This document shows, piece after piece, positions 6-28,970 of a DNA stretch of 44,773 nucleotides (the first letter of the stretch is position 1; each line of letters opens with the position of its first letter). Below the pieces are notes generated by a model. That model saw nothing but the letters and a program-made list of their open reading frames with translations, was not told the DNA's origin and did no database searches. Position numbers and translations under genes: made by a program. Location: the sequence record PP291582.1. One strand, given 5' to 3'. This DNA comes from Escherichia phage vB_EcoS_UTEC10.

Positions 6-155
6 CTATTTTCGGCTTACCACCCATTGCAGTAATTGATTTATGCAATCTGCTTTCGAAAACCCGTTAAAGGACTTTGAGTAAACACCGTACATCACAG
101 TCAAAAACACCGTTCCGCGGTATTCCTCAAATAAAACATCATCAAACTCAATCAT
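6..155 (-). CDS. hypothetical small protein (49 aa)
   Basis: Manually translated ORF below the track cutoff (MIEFDDVLFEEYRG...); ATG overlaps the stop of the upstream gene in an ATGA motif at 152-155; GAGGAGAG RBS upstream. Confidence 0.35.
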   Translation of the reverse strand: MIEFDDVLFEEYRGTVFLTVMYGVYSKSFNGFSKADCINQLLQWVVSRK

Positions 156-388
156 TCCCCACTCTCCTCTTTAGCAATACGTTGCTCAGTTTTAGTGATG
201 CCCCTGCGCGTGAATAACACCGGGCTTGTCTTAACGTGCGTCATAAGACGGTTGTTATAAATTACGTGGCGCTCGCAGTCAACGTCTTTGCTGTACTTCG
301 CAATCGTCATTTCGTTGATGCCGGTTTGTCGGCATGTCTCCGCCATCGTGCCGTATTCTTTTATCAGGTTCGGAATGCTGGTAATCAT
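152..388 (-). CDS. small helix-turn-helix DNA-binding protein
   Basis: 78 aa track ORF; segment EYGTMAETCRQTGINEMTIAKYSKD resembles an HTH; tightly coupled to flanking small genes. Confidence 0.5.
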   Translation of the reverse strand: MITSIPNLIKEYGTMAETCRQTGINEMTIAKYSKDVDCERHVIYNNRLMTHVKTSPVLFTRRGITKTEQRIAKEESGE

Positions 389-833: not shown

Positions 834-1022
834 TCACCCCACTATCTCATCGCCAAGCCACGCCGTTTCTCGTATATCGTCTACTACACACGCAGCGTGC
901 TCACGGCTAATTGCAAAAATGTAGAAGCTGAACTTCTTCCCGTCGGCGTCGATATGGTTAACCGAGTAGGGTTTCCACAAGACGCCATCTATAACTACTG
1001 GCTCAGGCGCTTTCATACCCAT
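834..1022 (-). CDS. hypothetical protein
   Basis: Track ORF 834..1025; first ATG at 1022 (MGMKAPEPVV...); overlaps the end of the upstream gene. Confidence 0.45.
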   Translation of the reverse strand: MGMKAPEPVVIDGVLWKPYSVNHIDADGKKFSFYIFAISREHAACVVDDIRETAWLGDEIVG

Positions 1023-1200
1023 CACCGGAGGCTTTGTTAAGGTTGAAGCGGTTAATCAGTTCACGACGTGTCTCGTAAAGCGACTCTACCATTTGTTCAG
1101 CTACAGCGATTTTAGTATTCAGGACGTGCATCACGTGGCTGATGTCTACGCCGCCGTTAACAGCCTCTACCATCATCTTTTCGTATTCGCGGTCAGTCAT
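1003..1200 (-). CDS. hypothetical protein
   Basis: Track ORF 1003..1215; internal ATG at 1200 (MTDREYEKMMVE...) overlaps the stop of the upstream small ORF in GGAGAGAAGAAATGA. Confidence 0.45.
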   Translation of the reverse strand: MTDREYEKMMVEAVNGGVDISHVMHVLNTKIAVAEQMVESLYETRRELINRFNLNKASGDGYESA

Positions 1201-1352
1201 TTCTTCTCTCCCCACATGCGATTGAGATACTTGTTCTTGTCCGGCCCAGGGAAACTGTTACGTTTCATCAGTTCCTCGCGTGTAGGGAACGGGGTGTGAC
1301 TAACTTTGCGGCCTACTCGTAATGGTTGGCTTACTTGACCTTGTTCGCTCAT
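1197..1352 (-). CDS. hypothetical small protein (51 aa)
   Basis: Manually translated (MSEQGQVSQPLRVGRK...MWGEKK); start and stop both sit in copies of the 15-mer GGAGAGAAGAAATGA. Confidence 0.4.
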   Translation of the reverse strand: MSEQGQVSQPLRVGRKVSHTPFPTREELMKRNSFPGPDKNKYLNRMWGEKK

Positions 1353-1498
1353 TTCTTCTCTCCTGCGTAAGCTGCTTTCAGTGTTTGCATCGCAGCGAAC
1401 CAGAACGCGTCAGCGGGGATACTGCTACTAAGGTTACTAACGGCGATACGTGCCATCAGTTGTGCGTCTTTGAAGGCTTCGATATCTGTGATTTTCAT
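1349..1498 (-). CDS. hypothetical small protein (49 aa)
   Basis: Manually translated (MKITDIEAFKDAQLMARIAV...AAYAGEKK); first gene after the minus-strand promoter at 1532-1560; GGAG RBS upstream. Confidence 0.4.
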   Translation of the reverse strand: MKITDIEAFKDAQLMARIAVSNLSSSIPADAFWFAAMQTLKAAYAGEKK

Positions 1499-1531
1499 CT
1501 TCTCTACTCCGTTCTCGTTGTCGATGGAGTA

Positions 1532-1560
1532 AATATAATAGGGTCGTAGGTAATAGTCAA
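1532..1560 (-). promoter_or_regulatory. sigma70-like promoter (TTGACT-N17-TATATT) for the leftward small-gene operon
   Basis: Minus-strand reading gives TTGACT, a 17-nt spacer and TATATT; shares the TATAATAGGG core of the repeated promoter element. Confidence 0.4.
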
Positions 1561-1591
1561 CTAGTCATTGCAGAAAATAGATAAAAAAAAA

Positions 1592-1614
1592 TCCCGGCTG
1601 GGTCAGGGCCGGGA
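1592..1614 (-). terminator. Rho-independent terminator (minus strand)
   Basis: GC-rich hairpin CCCGGC/GCCGGG at 1593-1613 followed on the minus strand by a 9-nt T run (A run 1583-1591 on plus strand). Confidence 0.55.
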
Positions 1615-1697
1615 TAAAACTGGAGAGTAGAGGGATGGAACAGGAGGTGATTTAAGTATCGTCGGATTAGTCTCAGGTGTCAATTGGTAAAATAAAA

Positions 1698-1716
1698 CCC
1701 GGATTCGCGGTCCGGG
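1698..1716 (-). terminator. hairpin terminator downstream of endolysin
   Basis: CCCGGA-N7-TCCGGG hairpin flanked by a T-rich run on the minus strand. Confidence 0.4.
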
Positions 1717-3673: not shown

Positions 3674-3901
3674 TTATTGCCTCTCTATTTTAAAATGATA
3701 CATAATTCCGGATAACGCACCGATAGCCGTGTTGACATTGAAGTCTTTAATGTCGCAGAGGTTTCTAAGATACCGAACAGCATCAGCGAGTTCCGCGAAG
3801 TCTTCGTAACGTACCCAATCACCTTCGTCACTCTTAACCAGGTCGTTATACGGGTCGTATGGGTATTCACTAACATCTTTAAGCTCGTATCTCTGTACCA
3901 T
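3674..3901 (-). CDS. hypothetical protein, paralog A of a tandem pair
   Basis: Internal ATG at 3901 (MVQRYELKD...); shares VQRYE...LVKSDEGDW.YED with the upstream gene. Confidence 0.45.
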   Translation of the reverse strand: MVQRYELKDVSEYPYDPYNDLVKSDEGDWVRYEDFAELADAVRYLRNLCDIKDFNVNTAIGALSGIMYHFKIERQ

Positions 3902-4188
3902 CACTCCACCCCTTCCACATGTGTAACAGACCCGCAGTTCGCGCACTCGACGTAATCCGGGAACTGGTCTTTGTATTTCTGTAACTCGGCGTTTACTTCT
4001 GCCAGTCTTGACACAAGCCCCTCTATTTCCATATCCGTAGTGGTTATGTAGTCCTGGAAACTGTCGTCCAGTTCCTTGTAATCTTCGTAACTTATCCAGT
4101 CGCCTTCGTCACTCTTAACCAGCTCATGATACGGGTGGCACGAGTTAACACACACAGCTCTAAACTCATATCTCTGTACCACAATCAC
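3901..4188 (-). CDS. hypothetical protein, paralog B of a tandem pair
   Basis: 95 aa; N-terminal 40 aa paralogous to 3674..3901; C-terminus has a CxxC pair; GTG start overlapping the upstream stop. Confidence 0.45.
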   Translation of the reverse strand: MIVVQRYEFRAVCVNSCHPYHELVKSDEGDWISYEDYKELDDSFQDYITTTDMEIEGLVSRLAEVNAELQKYKDQFPDYVECANCGSVTHVEGVE

Positions 4189-4388: not shown

Positions 4389-4882
4389 TTCTTTAACCCG
4401 CATTTAAGGCACATACAAGGAAACCCGACTCCGTAAAATTGCCATTCGTGCTCGCATTCCTGAGTATAGTTTTTCGGTTTATATTCCTCGTCATCCCACT
4501 CACGTTTACCACATTTAGAACAAAGCTCGCTACCAGGAACGTTGTTCGGATTGCCTTCACTGAGAAACAACCCAGGCATAATAATCCAAGAGTGCTCACA
4601 TTCCTGAGTATCTTCCTTACGGCAACCTGATTGCTCGGGTCCGTGTTCACCTACTACGTAGCTCACCCCTTTCGGCAGCGGGCCGCCGCGTTTTGTGACG
4701 CGGTTGAAATCCTCGTTCATCAGCTTTATTGTTTCCTGTAGCTCATCCACCAGCGCCGACGCGTCACGTAACTGATTCTTAAGTGACTGCACCTCATGCG
4801 CCAGGTCTTCGCACTGGTTGCTGTTTACCTGCTGCCGTAGTTGGTCAATCAGGTACTCGAATACTTCGTTTTTACTGTTCAT
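4385..4882 (-). CDS. coiled-coil / zinc-ribbon protein
   Basis: 165 aa; N-terminal heptad-like region, C-terminal Cys-rich region with repeated QECEH.W and CxxC motifs. Confidence 0.5.
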   Translation of the reverse strand: MNSKNEVFEYLIDQLRQQVNSNQCEDLAHEVQSLKNQLRDASALVDELQETIKLMNEDFNRVTKRGGPLPKGVSYVVGEHGPEQSGCRKEDTQECEHSWIIMPGLFLSEGNPNNVPGSELCSKCGKREWDDEEYKPKNYTQECEHEWQFYGVGFPCMCLKCGLKK

Positions 4883-5616: not shown

Positions 5617-5766
5617 ATCTCACCTCGTATTCATCACAGCTTGCACACCAGCTTTCCACGCCCGCCACGCTAGACGCGTCTTAATGTTCAGGTACTCTTT
5701 CTTTGAACCTTTGTTAACCGGCAGACCCTCGACGACAGCCCACCGTTCGAATGCTTCTCTCACAAC

Positions 5767-6033
5767 TCACCCCATCTTCTCTTTAACGTGCACCCAAAAC
5801 TCACCACAGTACCAGCACCACATAAGATTAGGCGTCTCGCGCACCCAACCGTAATCCTTGCGGGCACGAATCGGGATAATACCCTTAGTGAAATAATAAC
5901 CTGTTCGCAGAAACTCAGGGTCGCGAGTCGCAGTGCGCCACATGTTATAAAACTGCTCCAGCCCGGAACCCCGGCGCATGACCCGTATTTTATGGTTATA
6001 TTCCGCTACTGTTTTCAGTTCAGTGTTATTCAT
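5767..6033 (-). CDS. hypothetical protein
   Basis: 88 aa track ORF; ATG start; ATGA overlap with the upstream gene stop. Confidence 0.5.
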   Translation of the reverse strand: MNNTELKTVAEYNHKIRVMRRGSGLEQFYNMWRTATRDPEFLRTGYYFTKGIIPIRARKDYGWVRETPNLMWCWYCGEFWVHVKEKMG

Positions 6034-24361: not shown

Positions 24362-25750
24362 TTAACCGTCCACATTAAAATCAATACGGGTGATATATTT
24401 ACTACCCCACGCAGAATCAGCCTGCGGGATGATGGCGTAATCGTCAACAGCCGTAACGTTTACCACAGAGCCGTCGGAATAGGTAATGTCGATGCTTGTC
24501 GCGCCGTTCATTACTACTTTTGCTGATGCCGTTGTTCTATCTCCTGCAATAGCTGATGTCTGTATGTAACTGGTAGTATTTGCCGATTTCTCTAACTGCG
24601 CGCCCCATACATAAATGCCATTTCCCCCCGTACCCGCGAATATTGAGGATGTGCCGGATGCGAGCTGCACCCGGATAACAGAGTTTCTAGTTGCGCCCGC
24701 CTGGAAGACCATTGTTACCCGATATGTGTCCTCGGAAACCATAACGGCATTTTTTGATACAAAATTAACTCCTGAGTTCGCGACAAATGCGCCAGTAGCA
24801 GGGTTGAATGTTGCGGTCGCTATGGTGCCCGTTGCCACCCTCAGATAAAGGTTTAGTGGGTTGCTAGTGGCTTTTACAAATATTGAATATGAATACAGCT
24901 CATCTTGCTGCACTCCTATCGTCCTGTCGTTGGCGTAATGCTCAGAATTTGAAGTTGTCGCAGTGATTTCTGCCATAGTTATATCACCACGGGGCGATAC
25001 TTCAGCATTATTCCGCACAAATGTTTGGGGTCCAGTTCCCCATGTTTCCGAATTTATGTACAAATTGCGCGAGGCATCTTCTGGCGGCACCCGCCCAACA
25101 GCTTTACCATCAATAAACGTAAGGGGCCATTCATTGGTGGCGGACGGCACAAGATTGCCGTTGCGGTTGATGTAGTAAACCTGTGGCCCGTCATACACAA
25201 TGCGGCTATCCAGGGCGGACGCCAGAAGGTTAATCGGCGGGTATCCTGCAGGCCCTTCATTGCTCCAGATGCGCGGGAACGTCGTCTCATAGTTAGCGTA
25301 TATTTTCAGGAAACTACCCAGGCAGTCACCATAGCAGCCGTACAAATCTGGCAGATTGTTAATCAGGCACTGGTTCTCAAGGTCCTGGAACGGTGATTTC
25401 TCGGCGGTTGCCGTGAAAGTAATCGTCCAGTTAATGCCGTCTTCGGTGGATTCCGCGATGGTTGACGTGATGGTTACCTGATAATCCTCAATACCCATGC
25501 CGAAGTCGTGCGCCATCCAGAAACTTGACGCACCGCCGTCTACTTTTTCGAGGAACGACAGAAACGCCTGCCGCCCCAGCGCCGATGTAATCAGGGTTAC
25601 GCTTATCGGGAACACGTCGTAATATGTGTCGCGCCCCTGACGCACCCCGCCGCCCGCTAAATCGACACTCCAGACGTTGTTACGTCGGGTCATTGAGTAG
25701 CCTTTCGATACCACCGGCTTAAGGCTACGTGGGAAATATAAGTCGCTCAT
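24362..25750 (-). CDS. distal tail / minor tail protein with C-terminal beta-sandwich-like domain
   Basis: 462 aa immediately downstream of the tape measure gene; C-terminal GIYVWGAQLE-type motif. Confidence 0.5.
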   Translation of the reverse strand: MSDLYFPRSLKPVVSKGYSMTRRNNVWSVDLAGGGVRQGRDTYYDVFPISVTLITSALGRQAFLSFLEKVDGGASSFWMAHDFGMGIEDYQVTITSTIAESTEDGINWTITFTATAEKSPFQDLENQCLINNLPDLYGCYGDCLGSFLKIYANYETTFPRIWSNEGPAGYPPINLLASALDSRIVYDGPQVYYINRNGNLVPSATNEWPLTFIDGKAVGRVPPEDASRNLYINSETWGTGPQTFVRNNAEVSPRGDITMAEITATTSNSEHYANDRTIGVQQDELYSYSIFVKATSNPLNLYLRVATGTIATATFNPATGAFVANSGVNFVSKNAVMVSEDTYRVTMVFQAGATRNSVIRVQLASGTSSIFAGTGGNGIYVWGAQLEKSANTTSYIQTSAIAGDRTTASAKVVMNGATSIDITYSDGSVVNVTAVDDYAIIPQADSAWGSKYITRIDFNVDG

Positions 25751-28092
25751 TATTTAAACCCCGGCGCGTTTCTTGTGGCCTTGCGGGCCTTGCTAATCTT
25801 ACTGTTGCTGTTCTGCAAAGATGCAGCAACTTGCTCTTCTATGATGATACGCAGACGGCCTTCATCATCCTGCTCGGTGGATACGTTGCCAATCTGACTC
25901 GATGTATTATTTACAATGGTAACATTAGATGGGCCGGAAGAAGACCCGTTTTGCCCCATAATTTCTTTCATCTGCTGCGCGGTGCGCACACGCGATGCGC
26001 CAGCGGGCATGATAACTTCGGGTTTACCGCGTTCAGCGATGGTGGAAGCCTGCCCTGCGGATAACTGTCCGCCCTGTTCACGCGCGGACCGGATAGCGGA
26101 AACCTGCGCCATACCCGCCCCAACGGCAGCGGCAGCGGCTACGGGGGCCAGGAACGGGCCAACTACAGGGATAGCGGCCGTTGACTTATAAGCCTCAATA
26201 GCTGCTGTGTACGTGGCTATGGTGGCCTGTACGATAGCGAATGCCTTATACGCACCAGAGGCCTCGCCCAACGCAGACCCGATGTTTGACGCCATGTTAC
26301 CGAAGGCGGTTGCCGTTGCGTCGGCACGCTTGGTGGCGTATTGCTCGTTGATGGCGTTAAGCGCGGCCTGATACTGCTTCTCACTAATAAGCCCTTGCTC
26401 ACGGTACTTATCTGCGACCGCCAGTTTCTGCTGCTCCTGGATGTCGAGAAGATCAAGCTCAGTAGCGTTCTGGCCAATAATCTGAGCCATGAAGTCGTCG
26501 CCTTTCTGCTTTTTCTCCTGCCGTTCTTTCTCGCGCTTATCCAATTCTTGCTGCCGTGCGGTATCCGCCTCCAGCATAATCTGAGTTTTGGCGTTCTCGT
26601 ATTGTTGGTCGCTAAGAAGCCTATTGCCATAGAACTCCTGTAGCTTGGTTAGCTGCTGTTCCTGGTTGGCTTCTATTTTCTGGAATACGTCATCATTGAG
26701 ATGAATCGACTGGTAGTAGAAATCCTCAGCAGCTTTCTTCTGGCGCTCGAACGCATCCGCGGCTTTCTTAGCGGCTTTTGCACCAGCGCTATCATCTTCG
26801 GATCCGCCACCAGTACCCGTTACCTTAAATTTACTAAGCCCTTCTTCCTTAGCAGCCTCTTTGTCGATGTCATACGCCGCGCGTTTAAGCGCGACGATAT
26901 TTTGCTGAGCCTCCACCTGTTCACGGAAACTTTTACGGGTCAGGTCAGCAACATCGCGCTGAGTATCCAGTGCCATCCCCAGCTGGAAGTTGATATTTTT
27001 TGCTACGTCTACAGATTCACCTGGTGTGAAGGCCGCTTTCACTAGTCGCCCAGCGTCCTGTGCCCCTTTAACCATATCCTCAAAGAAGCGCTCCATAGCG
27101 GTGAATTCTTCTGCGATGAAATCGAGAGCATCGGCGGCGGATTCCGCTATGGTTGTCGCCGTTTGTTCGCCGCTGTCAGTGATACTTTTACTGCTAAAAT
27201 CCCAAAGTTCATTCAGTCCGTTTATCGCATCGCCTACGAAGCCGAACGCGGCGTCAAACGACGTCTCTATGGCGCTGCCTACTTCTGACGCGATGTCGCC
27301 CCACATACGCATCTCAGCAGCAAGCTCCCCAGATGCAACCTGTGCATTAAGCTCCTGGATTAAGTCATCTATGTATCTGATAGGTTCGGCTAGGGCGCCA
27401 ACATCAAGACTGGTGGCCAGTGTCATTTTTAACTGCGACCATGAGTCGCTGGCACTGGCTATAGCGCCGTTGAGTGTGTTGGCCTGGTCCGCCATAGCAC
27501 CCGCAAAGTTTACGTTACCAATGTTAAGAAGGTACTGCTCGATATCAGCAGCGCTCTTCTTAACTACCGTAGTGGTGCCCTGGAATGTAAATTCAACATC
27601 GTTTTTGTTCTGCTTGGCCTTGATGCCGAACTCTTTAAGGCGCTCAAATTCAAATGTACTGGCGTCCGCAACGGCCTCAATCATCTGATTCAGGTCTTTA
27701 CCCATAGCGGCGGCGGTGTTGCCGTAGGAGCGCAACGCTTCTTCTGATGGGGTGAGGCCGAGCGCCACAAGTTTACGGAAACCCTCTACTGCCTGCTCGA
27801 GCCCGTAAGGAGTGTCGCGCGCGAAGTCTTGCAGGATGCTTAATGCCTGTCTTGCGCCCTGTGTGCTCCCGGTTAACGTTTTCAGGCTGGCGGACATCTT
27901 GTCCAGTTGCCGTTGGGAGTCCACCAGTTCCTGCGCGGCCTTGTAAGCGGTAGCGGCGACAATTGAAGCAAGGCCCGCTACGGCGGTCCCCGCTACTTTT
28001 GCCGACTTGGAGAGATTATCAAGACGGTCCGATGTAGCTTTCGCGCCTTGCTCTGATACTTTTACAACTAAACTAGCTACATCAGCCATCAT
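25750..28092 (-). CDS. tail tape measure protein
   Basis: 780 aa, long helical/coiled-coil protein rich in Ala/Gln/Glu; location downstream of the chaperone pair. Confidence 0.8.
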   Translation of the reverse strand: MMADVASLVVKVSEQGAKATSDRLDNLSKSAKVAGTAVAGLASIVAATAYKAAQELVDSQRQLDKMSASLKTLTGSTQGARQALSILQDFARDTPYGLEQAVEGFRKLVALGLTPSEEALRSYGNTAAAMGKDLNQMIEAVADASTFEFERLKEFGIKAKQNKNDVEFTFQGTTTVVKKSAADIEQYLLNIGNVNFAGAMADQANTLNGAIASASDSWSQLKMTLATSLDVGALAEPIRYIDDLIQELNAQVASGELAAEMRMWGDIASEVGSAIETSFDAAFGFVGDAINGLNELWDFSSKSITDSGEQTATTIAESAADALDFIAEEFTAMERFFEDMVKGAQDAGRLVKAAFTPGESVDVAKNINFQLGMALDTQRDVADLTRKSFREQVEAQQNIVALKRAAYDIDKEAAKEEGLSKFKVTGTGGGSEDDSAGAKAAKKAADAFERQKKAAEDFYYQSIHLNDDVFQKIEANQEQQLTKLQEFYGNRLLSDQQYENAKTQIMLEADTARQQELDKREKERQEKKQKGDDFMAQIIGQNATELDLLDIQEQQKLAVADKYREQGLISEKQYQAALNAINEQYATKRADATATAFGNMASNIGSALGEASGAYKAFAIVQATIATYTAAIEAYKSTAAIPVVGPFLAPVAAAAAVGAGMAQVSAIRSAREQGGQLSAGQASTIAERGKPEVIMPAGASRVRTAQQMKEIMGQNGSSSGPSNVTIVNNTSSQIGNVSTEQDDEGRLRIIIEEQVAASLQNSNSKISKARKATRNAPGFK

Positions 28093-28863: not shown

Positions 28864-28970
28864 TCTTTAATCCTTTGGTTAAGAGGTTACTGGTTAAGGT
28901 GAATGCGCCAGGCGGGAACCACCCGCTTTTCGTGTGCGACACTAGGCGCAAACTTATTCTAGCACACTAC

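What the first reader, a model, noticed from the sequence alone, without database searches (positions are those of the whole stretch)
1197..1363. Duplicated 15-mer GGAGAGAAGAAATGA forming RBS plus stop/start coupling junctions
The plus-strand 15-mer TCATTTCTTCTCTCC occurs at 1197-1211 and 1349-1363. On the minus strand each copy encodes a ...GEKK* C-terminus, a GGAG RBS and an ATG overlapping the TGA. Two consecutive small genes are therefore joined by the same junction module, suggesting junction duplication or strong selection for translational coupling.
Basis: seen in the sequence. Interest (0 to 1): 0.4.

Follow-up and report, generated by a model that had tools for sequence, protein, structure and literature searches.

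The report
Shared ribosome-site junction between small phage genes
Two neighbouring small genes of a Kagunavirus-type E. coli phage end in the same 15 bases, which carry the ribosome-binding site and overlapping start codon of the next gene; this is an ordinary translational-coupling junction, and in related phages it is also the exact point where accessory genes are swapped in and out.

Summary
TCATTTCTTCTCTCC occurs exactly twice, at 1197-1211 and 1349-1363, with about 0.04-0.05 matches expected by chance.

On the minus strand each copy (J = GGAGAGAAGAAATGA) encodes ...GEKK-stop, has GGAG 7 nt before an ATG, and overlaps stop and start as ATGA. It links three genes that are each under purifying selection: A (49 aa), B (51 aa, DUF2737) and C (65 aa). 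They open a promoter-led array of small genes in a Guernseyvirinae phage.

It is not a recent local duplication.
- **B-end copy:** this is the native tail of DUF2737. Lambdoid prophage homologues end in GGAGCGAAGAAATGA.
- **A-end copy:** this is the conserved tail of a lineage-specific gene.

In 55 related arrays, J follows 4 unrelated upstream gene families and precedes 12 downstream families, and conservation stops exactly after ATGA. Some inserted genes are flanked by 18-23 nt direct repeats of J. Joints such as F26-J-F12 and F26-J-F17 share only J with their presumed parental arrangements (A-J-F12, A-J-F17), which implies crossovers inside it. The same 14-mer is reused twice in four unrelated phage contigs.

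Verdict: a translational-coupling "docking" junction that also serves as a short recombination linker. It is a new member of known kinds and of modest interest. Coupled translation itself was not tested.

The parts
1349..1363 (-). Junction copy 1 (J, GGAGAGAAGAAATGA): last four codons plus stop of gene A (..AGEKK*), GGAG Shine-Dalgarno, and the ATG of gene B overlapping the TGA
   Evidence: Present in 40 of 55 related arrays, whichever gene follows.
1197..1211 (-). Junction copy 2 (J): last four codons plus stop of gene B (..WGEKK*), GGAG, and the ATG of gene C overlapping the TGA
   Evidence: The same tail type occurs in distant DUF2737 genes, 1 mismatch away. Relatives carry alternative B-end alleles: GERKE*, GERKND*, GKKK*.
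1349..1498 (-). Gene A, 49 aa, first gene of the array (PHROG 2180). The 198 homologues found were at least 80% identical (best 120 listed) and lie on contigs of up to about 45 kb; named members are Escherichia or Salmonella phage or host records
   Evidence: Third-position variation 39 sites versus 20 and 14.
1197..1352 (-). Gene B, 51 aa, DUF2737 family (PF10930, PHROG 4684); flanked by the two J copies
   Evidence: Third-position variation 34 sites versus 17 and 11. No similarity to A.
1003..1200 (-). Gene C, 65 aa (PHROG 1402; the N-terminal part resembles PHROG 268), started from junction copy 2
1495..1510 (-). Gene A's own initiation region GGAGTAGAGAAGATGA: also GGAG plus a purine-rich spacer plus ATGA, similar to J but not identical
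   Evidence: It is the most accessible 15-mer initiation region of the array.
1532..1560 (-). Sigma-70-like promoter TTGACT-17-TATATT upstream of gene A
   Evidence: 10 of 12 matches. This is a consensus match only.
1583..1613 (-). Terminator-like hairpin followed by a U9 run, between the endolysin gene and the array promoter
   Evidence: -13.8 kcal/mol, z -3.35.
1689..1716 (-). Second terminator-like hairpin followed by a U-rich run, downstream of the endolysin gene
   Evidence: -14.4 kcal/mol, z -3.49.
152..166 (-). A further docking junction of the same array: NinH-like gene tail GAGAGTGGGGAATGA (..ESGE*) with ATGA overlap. Across its close sequence variants it is followed by at least 9 different gene families in relatives

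Best explanation
J is a translational-coupling or 'docking' junction. The last four codons of a small upstream gene are written in purines only (GGA GAG AAG AAA). They therefore hold a GGAG Shine-Dalgarno site 7 nt before an ATG that overlaps the upstream TGA. Ribosomes finishing the upstream gene, or binding the open purine tract afresh, start the next gene.

The three genes A, B and C head a promoter-driven array of small accessory genes downstream of the lysis cassette in a Kagunavirus-type phage.

The two copies in the window are not a recent duplication. The B-end copy is the native DUF2737 tail. The A-end copy is the conserved tail of gene A, and it supplies the initiation signals for whichever gene sits behind it.

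Because the same short sequence sits at several gene boundaries, it has also served as the crossover point at which inserted genes were gained and stacked in this phage subfamily.

**Shown:** the anatomy, that the three genes are coding, conservation that stops exactly at ATGA, repeats flanking inserted genes, and joints that share only J.

**Inferred:** that translation is coupled, that J is selected as an initiation region, and that recombination in J is promoted by phage functions.
For: **Anatomy and chance**
- Positions, reading frame and chance expectation.

**Real genes**
- Variation is concentrated at third codon positions in A, B and C.
- A and B are unrelated.

**Transcription unit**
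- Two hairpin-plus-U-run terminators and a promoter-like site precede A.

**Open initiation regions**
- J is unpaired in local minimum-energy folds (z +0.34 and +1.43).
- The initiation regions of A, B and C are the most accessible of the array, at the 85th-94th percentile.

**Nucleotide-level rather than peptide-level constraint**
- 99 of 120 gene A representatives end in YAGEKK. The rest vary (GAKK, GEQK, GEKE, GDKK, GENK).
- The same 14-mer serves as a purely intergenic RBS-ATG in unrelated contigs L011 and L046.

**Ancestry of the B-end copy**
- DUF2737 genes in lambdoid prophages end in GGAGCGAAGAAATGA and are followed by variable genes.

**Docking role**
- In 55 arrays J follows 4 upstream families and precedes 12 downstream families.
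- Column entropy jumps from 0 to more than 1 bit immediately after ATGA.

**Recombination at J**
- Inserted genes F26 and F32 are flanked by GCAGGAGAGAAGAAATGAG(CGAA), direct repeats of 19-23 nt.
- A Jerseyvirus (L160) has F26 flanked by the local GEQK-type variant on both sides, followed by the 5' end of a different gene, F17.
- phiWAO78-1 has the order A-J-F26-J'-F12.
- In Shuimuvirus IME207 the F26 homologue is flanked by GAAACAAAATGA, which occurs only at those two sites in 47.5 kb.
- CR01, which is 98% identical to this window over the queried 901 bases, has a second identical 18-nt junction pair flanking an unrelated gene. Genome-wide, its only two identical initiation-region pairs both involve nearby genes.
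- CR01 encodes a PD-(D/E)XK nuclease next to an Enc34-type ssDNA-binding protein.
Against: - No translation data exist, so coupling is inferred from anatomy alone.
- Exact J is not required before gene C. Most Kagunavirus relatives use GGAGAGCGTAAAGAATGA or a -8 overlap at that junction instead.
- In Salmonella-phage relatives the A-end (GGAGAACAAAAATGA) and B-end (GGTAAGAAGAAATGA) junctions differ. These two particular copies are therefore not homogenised, and their identity in the window could be shared ancestry of state or convergence.
- The joint expected from J x J deletion of gene B (A-J-C) is absent from IMG/VR.
- Four unrelated phage contigs reuse the same 14-mer twice. That fits selection for one favoured initiation sequence as well as it fits copying.
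Confidence: 0.6

Rival explanations
1. Pure convergence. Two independent junctions arrived at the same purine-only sequence because very few sequences can at once encode a harmless tail, hold GGAG at the right distance, stay unstructured and end in ATGA. Recombination played no part in the identity.
For: - The same 14-mer is used twice within 1 kb in four unrelated IMG/VR contigs, both as an overlap junction and as a free intergenic RBS.
- The B-end form predates this phage group.
- The A-end and B-end junctions differ in Salmonella-phage relatives.
- Other phage loci also repeat 15-nt RBS-ATG modules.
Against: - In CR01 only 3 of 94 start regions have GGAG at -11, and start regions in general are not purine-only.
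- CR01's pairwise distances between start regions show two pairs at 0, none at 1 and five at 2. Both identical pairs involve nearby genes.
- The second identical pair (GAGGACTAAGTTATGAGA) is not purine-only.
- F26 carries lineage-specific repeats at both flanks in three phage lineages.
Confidence: 0.25
2. A recent local duplication or insertion scar. Gene B was inserted into this genome with duplication of a 15-nt target, and the repeat has no function of its own.
For: - Gene B is flanked by direct repeats.
- Other inserted genes (F26, F32) show the same flanked-by-repeat layout.
Against: - B is present in all 55 related arrays examined.
- B's J-type tail is native to DUF2737 in distant phages.
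- The A-end J is conserved across dozens of genomes, whichever gene follows.
- No genome lacking B with a single J was found.
Confidence: 0.05
3. A protein-level motif. GEKK is a functional C-terminal tag, for example for binding or degradation, shared by proteins A and B. The DNA identity is a by-product.
For: - Both proteins end in GEKK.
- DUF2737 homologues end in G[AE]KK.
Against: - The tail of A tolerates GAKK, GEQK, GEKE, GDKK, GENK and GGKK.
- The tail of B varies: GERKE, GERKND, GKKK, GTKK.
- The tail of F26 changes with the slot it occupies: AGEKK, AREQK, VGGVESD, EETK.
- The same DNA serves as a non-coding RBS in L011 and L046.
Confidence: 0.05
4. Chance coincidence.
For: The repeat is short (15 nt), and 8 of its positions (GGAG and ATGA) are functionally constrained.
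Against: - About 0.04-0.05 matches are expected by chance.
- The two copies share the same reading frame and the same role.
- The pattern recurs across relatives and in other phages.
Confidence: 0.03

Closest known systems
ATGA stop/start overlap junctions with an intragenic Shine-Dalgarno site (translational coupling by termination-reinitiation; Huber et al. 2019, PMC6728339)
   Same: - Co-directional genes with a 4-nt ATGA overlap and a Shine-Dalgarno site inside the end of the upstream gene.
- In CR01, 18 same-strand gene pairs have this 4-nt overlap.
   Different: The whole 15-nt module is identical at two consecutive junctions, and it is constant in front of a dozen different downstream genes in relatives. 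Coupling itself was not measured.
PeSL mobile regulatory cassettes in hyperplastic regions of T4-type phages (Arbiol et al. 2010, PMC2839356; PMC4122927)
   Same: - Short repeated expression signals sit between small non-essential genes in variable regions.
- Genomes differ by insertions, deletions and replacements bounded by the repeats.
- Recombination between the repeats is the proposed driver.
   Different: - PeSLs are promoter plus terminator stem-loops lying in intergenic DNA. J is a 15-18 nt translation signal embedded in coding sequence, with no promoter or hairpin.
- No mini-circles or B-deletion joints were detected.
Short conserved sequences at gene boundaries of lambdoid phages, proposed as sites of module exchange (the 'linker' idea of the modular theory of phage evolution; recalled from memory, not read here)
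   Same: Novel joints coincide with gene boundaries, and a short shared sequence at the boundary gives homology between genes that are otherwise unrelated.
   Different: This is a different phage group (virulent Guernseyvirinae siphoviruses). The shared sequence is also the ribosome-binding site and start of the incoming gene, which itself begins exactly at the shared ATG.
Relaxed or short-homology recombination by phage recombination functions (Martinsohn et al. 2008, PMC2327257; De Paepe et al. 2014, PMC3945230)
   Same: Offers a plausible enzymatic route for exchange at very short or diverged homology. CR01 encodes a PD-(D/E)XK nuclease next to an Enc34-type ssDNA-binding protein.
   Different: No activity was tested. 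Homology of 15-23 nt is at or below the lengths I recall those systems needing; only the abstracts were seen here.

Membership tests
ATGA-overlap translational-coupling junction | Two co-directional genes whose stop and start codons overlap as ATGA | tested here: met
   A/B overlap at 1352-1349 and B/C overlap at 1200-1197.
ATGA-overlap translational-coupling junction | Shine-Dalgarno motif inside the upstream gene, at working distance from the downstream ATG | tested here: met
   GGAG lies 7 nt before the ATG in both copies. The tract is unpaired in local folds.
ATGA-overlap translational-coupling junction | Both partners are real protein-coding genes | tested here: met
   Excess third-position variation in A, B and C. 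PHROG and Pfam matches.
ATGA-overlap translational-coupling junction | Translation of the downstream gene depends on translation of the upstream gene | not testable with these tools
   Needs reporter fusions or ribosome profiling.
PeSL-type mobile regulatory cassette | Strong sigma-70 promoter joined to a terminator stem-loop within each repeat | tested here: not met
   No promoter-like or hairpin element in or around J. The only promoter-like site lies upstream of gene A.
PeSL-type mobile regulatory cassette | Repeats bound insertions, deletions and replacements of small genes between close relatives | tested here: met
   F26 and F32 are flanked by J. The joints F26-J-F12 and F26-J-F17 share only J with the arrangements A-J-F12 and A-J-F17.
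PeSL-type mobile regulatory cassette | Circular excision products or deletion joints formed between repeats | tested here: inconclusive
   The A-J-C joint is absent from IMG/VR. Mini-circles cannot be tested without a phage lysate.
DUF2737 (PF10930), gene B only | Score above the Pfam gathering threshold | tested here: met
   38.9 bits against a cut-off of 25. PHROG 4684, E = 7e-34.
Tandem gene duplication (A and B as paralogues) | Detectable similarity between the two genes beyond the repeat | tested here: not met
   No BLASTP alignment at E <= 100. They belong to different PHROGs. The DNA repeat is exactly 15 nt.
Transposon-type target-site duplication | A mobile element encoding a transposase or similar function lies between the repeats | tested here: not met
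   The 137 nt between the repeats hold only the 51-aa DUF2737 gene.

The most novel reading that the evidence does not exclude
J and its analogues would be dedicated, portable 'docking linkers'. The analogues are the NinH-tail junction, the 18-nt GAGGACTAAGTTATGAGA pair in CR01, and the GAAACAAAATGA pair around F26 in Shuimuvirus. On this reading, small accessory genes that lack their own ribosome-binding site travel between phages as linker-plus-gene units, perhaps as circles formed by linker x linker recombination as for PeSL mini-circles. They would be captured in frame at the ATGA of a resident anchor gene. This would be a translation-signal-based system for exchanging inserted genes in virulent siphoviruses.
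Probability: 0.2. Interest if true: 0.55.

Novelty: new member of a known kind. Interest (0 to 1): 0.3.

Why it matters
For this window it gives a clean annotation. Three real small genes are joined by ATGA overlaps, and they form the head of an accessory-gene transcription unit.

More broadly, conserved anchor genes in Guernseyvirinae (A, DUF2737, NinH-like) provide the ribosome-binding site and start codon for whichever variable gene sits behind them. The same short signal also marks the breakpoints at which genes are exchanged.

That is useful in two ways. Phage engineers get a natural, precise insertion slot that brings expression signals with it. Comparative genomics gets a concrete case of how small genes of unknown function are shuffled without losing expression. 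It does not change current understanding of translational coupling or of phage mosaicism.

Tried and rejected
- **A and B as paralogues:** rejected. There is no similarity outside the 15-mer.
- **A structured RNA or known RNA family at J:** rejected. Rfam finds nothing there, and local folds are no more stable than shuffles.
- **A tRNA or integration site:** none found.
- **A genome-wide stereotyped ribosome-binding site:** rejected. J occurs only twice in the window and in CR01, even allowing 2 mismatches.
- **Exact 15-mer scan of IMG/VR:** mostly single hits in unrelated contigs. Only 3 of 120 loci are Guernseyvirinae, and none share the inserted genes. The scan was still useful because it found four unrelated loci with the 14-mer doubled.
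- **Search for the B-deletion joint A-J-C:** nothing found.
- **Distant homologues of gene A, to learn its ancestral tail:** the 120 homologues listed are all at least 80% identical, so this was uninformative.
- **Single-protein searches for F26 and F32 in IMG/VR:** these only returned loci already in hand. A tblastn search of GenBank phages was more useful.
- **Kagunavirus transcriptome paper (PMC12645636):** it classed only 57 genes, and the passages read did not mention these small genes.
- **Gene D as a T7 Gp2-like RNA polymerase inhibitor, as annotated in a relative:** no sequence-level match in the PDB.

Full report
**1. Observation**

The plus-strand 15-mer TCATTTCTTCTCTCC is present exactly at 1197-1211 and 1349-1363. 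These are the only matches in the window even with two mismatches, and shuffles give 0.05 matches on average. Window-wide there are only two exact direct 15-mer repeats within 400 nt; Markov simulations give a mean of 0.04. The other one lies inside a pair of paralogous genes.

The repeat is exactly 15 nt, and the flanking bases differ. On the minus strand each copy (J = GGAGAGAAGAAATGA) reads GGA GAG AAG AAA TGA in the frame of an upstream gene. GGAG lies 7 nt before an ATG that overlaps the TGA. The two copies are the junctions A->B and B->C of three genes: A 1498-1349 (49 aa), B 1352-1197 (51 aa) and C 1200-1003 (65 aa).

**2. Context**

The window is a Guernseyvirinae (Kagunavirus-type) siphovirus. 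Bases 900-1800 are 98% identical to Escherichia phage CR01 and about 93% identical to K1G, and 368 phage records match.

On the minus strand the order is:
- two holin-like genes and an endolysin (annotations of relatives);
- two hairpins followed by U-runs;
- a promoter-like TTGACT-17-TATATT;
- an array of about nine small genes, most joined by ATGA overlaps, which in relatives runs up to the small terminase gene.

A matches PHROG 2180. B is DUF2737 (PF10930, 38.9 bits) and PHROG 4684. C matches PHROG 1402. A and B share no similarity. In alignments of relatives, variation falls mainly at third codon positions in all three genes, so they are real genes under purifying selection.

**3. What the junction does**

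This section is inference from anatomy. J is a purine-only tract and is unpaired in local minimum-energy folds, with z-scores of +0.34 and +1.43. With local-folding probabilities, the initiation regions of A, B and C are the three most accessible of the array, at the 85th-94th percentile of all 15-mers in the transcript. Gene A's own initiation region, GGAGTAGAGAAGATGA, is of the same style.

The constraint acts on the nucleotides rather than the peptide:
- 99 of 120 cluster representatives of A end in YAGEKK, but the rest carry GAKK, GEQK, GEKE, GDKK, GENK and others.
- The same sequence serves as a non-coding intergenic RBS-ATG in unrelated phage contigs.

This matches the known class of ATGA-overlap junctions with an intragenic Shine-Dalgarno site. 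For that class, strict coupling was shown in 13 of 14 tested pairs in Haloferax volcanii and E. coli (PMC6728339). Coupling here has not been tested.

**4. Origin of the two copies**

DUF2737 homologues in lambdoid prophages are about 65-70% identical to B over the conserved part. They end in W[LF]GAKK*, encoded as GGAGCGAAGAAATGA, which is one mismatch from J, and they are followed by variable genes. The B-end copy is therefore the native tail of that family.

Within Kagunavirus the B-end is polymorphic: GEKK, GERKE, GERKND with a -8 overlap, and GKKK in Salmonella phages. Exact J is thus not needed to express C.

The 198 homologues of gene A that were found are at least 80% identical among the 120 listed. 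Its tail is constant in E. coli phages and reads GGAGAACAAAAATGA in many Salmonella phages. In those Salmonella phages the A-end and B-end junctions differ, so these two copies are not kept identical by conversion. A recent local duplication is not supported.

**5. J is a docking point for variable genes**

I reconstructed the array in 55 genomes (the window, 3 GenBank relatives and 51 IMG/VR contigs). F-numbers are single-linkage BLASTP clusters of the proteins in these arrays; F01 is gene A and F02 is gene B. The clustering merged gene C with the NinH-like protein as F00.
- **Slot A|B** is either empty or holds one of at least nine unrelated genes.
- **Slot B|C** is either empty or holds one of at least six.
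- Column entropy is 0 through ATGA and jumps above 1 bit at the next base.
- J follows 4 upstream families (A, B, F26, F32) and precedes 12 downstream families in 40 of 55 genomes.
- Nine arrays carry two exact copies of J.
- The NinH-like tail GAGAG(T/C)GGGGAATGA is a further slot of this kind.

**6. Evidence that exchanges occurred inside the junction**

- Inserted genes F26 and F32 in the A|B slot end in GCAGGAGAGAAGAAATGAG(CGAA). This gives 19-23 nt direct repeats around the inserted gene.
- In Jerseyvirus contig L160, F26 is flanked on both sides by the local GEQK-type variant. The second copy is followed by the first 20 nt of a different gene, F17.
- In phiWAO78-1 the order is A-J-F26-J'-F12.
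- The joints F26-J-F17 and F26-J-F12 share only J with the arrangements A-J-F17 and A-J-F12.
- The tail of F26 changes with its slot: AGEKK, AREQK, VGGVESD.
- In the unrelated Shuimuvirus IME207, the F26 homologue sits between two copies of GAAACAAAATGA, which occurs nowhere else in 47.5 kb.
- In CR01, only 2 of 4,371 pairs of start regions are identical. One is the J pair. The other is an 18-nt GAGGACTAAGTTATGAGA pair flanking a non-homologous 63-aa gene. Both pairs involve nearby genes.
- CR01 encodes a PD-(D/E)XK nuclease (DUF2800) next to an Enc34-type ssDNA-binding protein, a possible recombination module.

Against a frequent J x J exchange in this genome: the joint A-J-C, in which B is deleted, is absent from IMG/VR.

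**7. Convergence remains a serious rival**

Of 120 IMG/VR loci pulled out by one copy of J, only three are Guernseyvirinae. Four unrelated loci carry GGAGAGAAGAAATG twice within 1 kb, each copy starting an ORF. Five or six further loci repeat other 15-nt RBS-ATG modules.

Reuse of one initiation module within a phage genome is therefore common, and this particular purine tract seems favoured. For the A-end/B-end pair in the window, I cannot separate retained or convergent states from copying.

**8. Comparison with known systems**

- **ATGA-overlap coupling junction:** all sequence-level features are met. The functional feature is untested.
- **PeSLs of T4-type phages** (PMC2839356): J resembles them in bounding gene gain and loss in a variable region. 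It fails their defining feature, because it has no promoter or terminator.
- **Short conserved boundary sequences proposed for lambdoid phages** (recalled from memory): J fits this older idea.

**9. Verdict**

The finding is real and not due to chance. It is best read as a translational-coupling or docking junction that has also served as a short recombination linker in a hyperplastic accessory-gene array. It is a new member of known kinds. Interest is 0.3.

Noticed in passing
window 3674-3946 and 3901-4188 (minus strand); repeat 3789-3900 / 4070-4181: Two adjacent overlapping small genes (90 and 95 aa) are tandem paralogues. They share a 112-nt direct repeat at 79% identity and the motif LVKSDEGDW..YED.
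   Followed up: partly
window 4448-4467 and 4592-4611: A 20-nt direct repeat (95% identical, 144 nt apart) inside the 165-aa ORF at 4882-4385 on the minus strand. Its nature is unknown.
   Followed up: no
window 28888-28952 (minus strand): The only Rfam match in the window: int-alpA RNA (RF02996), 36.4 bits against a gathering score of 35.8, so borderline.
   Followed up: no
L256 (phage CR01) 34076-34097 and 34271-34292; equivalent window region about 5620-6033: CR01, 98% identical to the window over the queried 901 bases, has a second identical junction pair, GAGGACTAAGTTATGAGA (18 nt), flanking a non-homologous 63-aa gene. The window lacks these genes and has an 88-aa gene there instead, so this is a second variable small-gene array.
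   Followed up: partly
window 1003-1200 and 152-388; loci L156, L160, L161: Gene C and the NinH-like gene are separate here (65 aa and 78 aa). In some Salmonella-phage relatives a single 118-aa protein combines a C-like N-terminus with the NinH-like part. PHROG 268 spans both halves.
   Followed up: partly
Gene A homologues P0002, P0017, P0040, P0068: Some relatives have gene A fused in frame to an upstream gene, giving 74- or 82-aa proteins. Others have expansions of an SNL tripeptide repeat (SNLSNLSNLSNS) inside A.
   Followed up: no
window 1197-1204 (ATGACTGA) and relatives: The start of gene C, ATGACTGA, offers TGA stops in two frames. Single-base changes in the A-run before it switch gene B between a -4 overlap (GERKE*, GEKK*) and a -8 overlap (GERKND*) without disturbing C.
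   Followed up: partly
window 834-1016 (minus strand): This 60-aa gene (PHROG 10509) is annotated in phage fEg-Eco06 as an RNA polymerase inhibitor 'similar to 2LMC_A' (T7 Gp2). No sequence-level match to any PDB chain was found at E <= 0.1.
   Followed up: partly
L256 (CR01) 25469-26095 and 26427-27533: An Enc34-type ssDNA-binding protein lies next to a DUF2800 / PD-(D/E)XK nuclease. This is a candidate recombination module that could act on short homologies.
   Followed up: partly
L011 (reverse strand 9262 and 9376), L033 (5597 and 5812), L046 (897 and 1084), L121 (2938 and 3639): Four unrelated IMG/VR phage contigs each carry GGAGAGAAGAAATG twice within 1 kb. Some copies are ..GEKK*/ATGA overlaps and others are free intergenic ribosome-binding sites.
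   Followed up: partly
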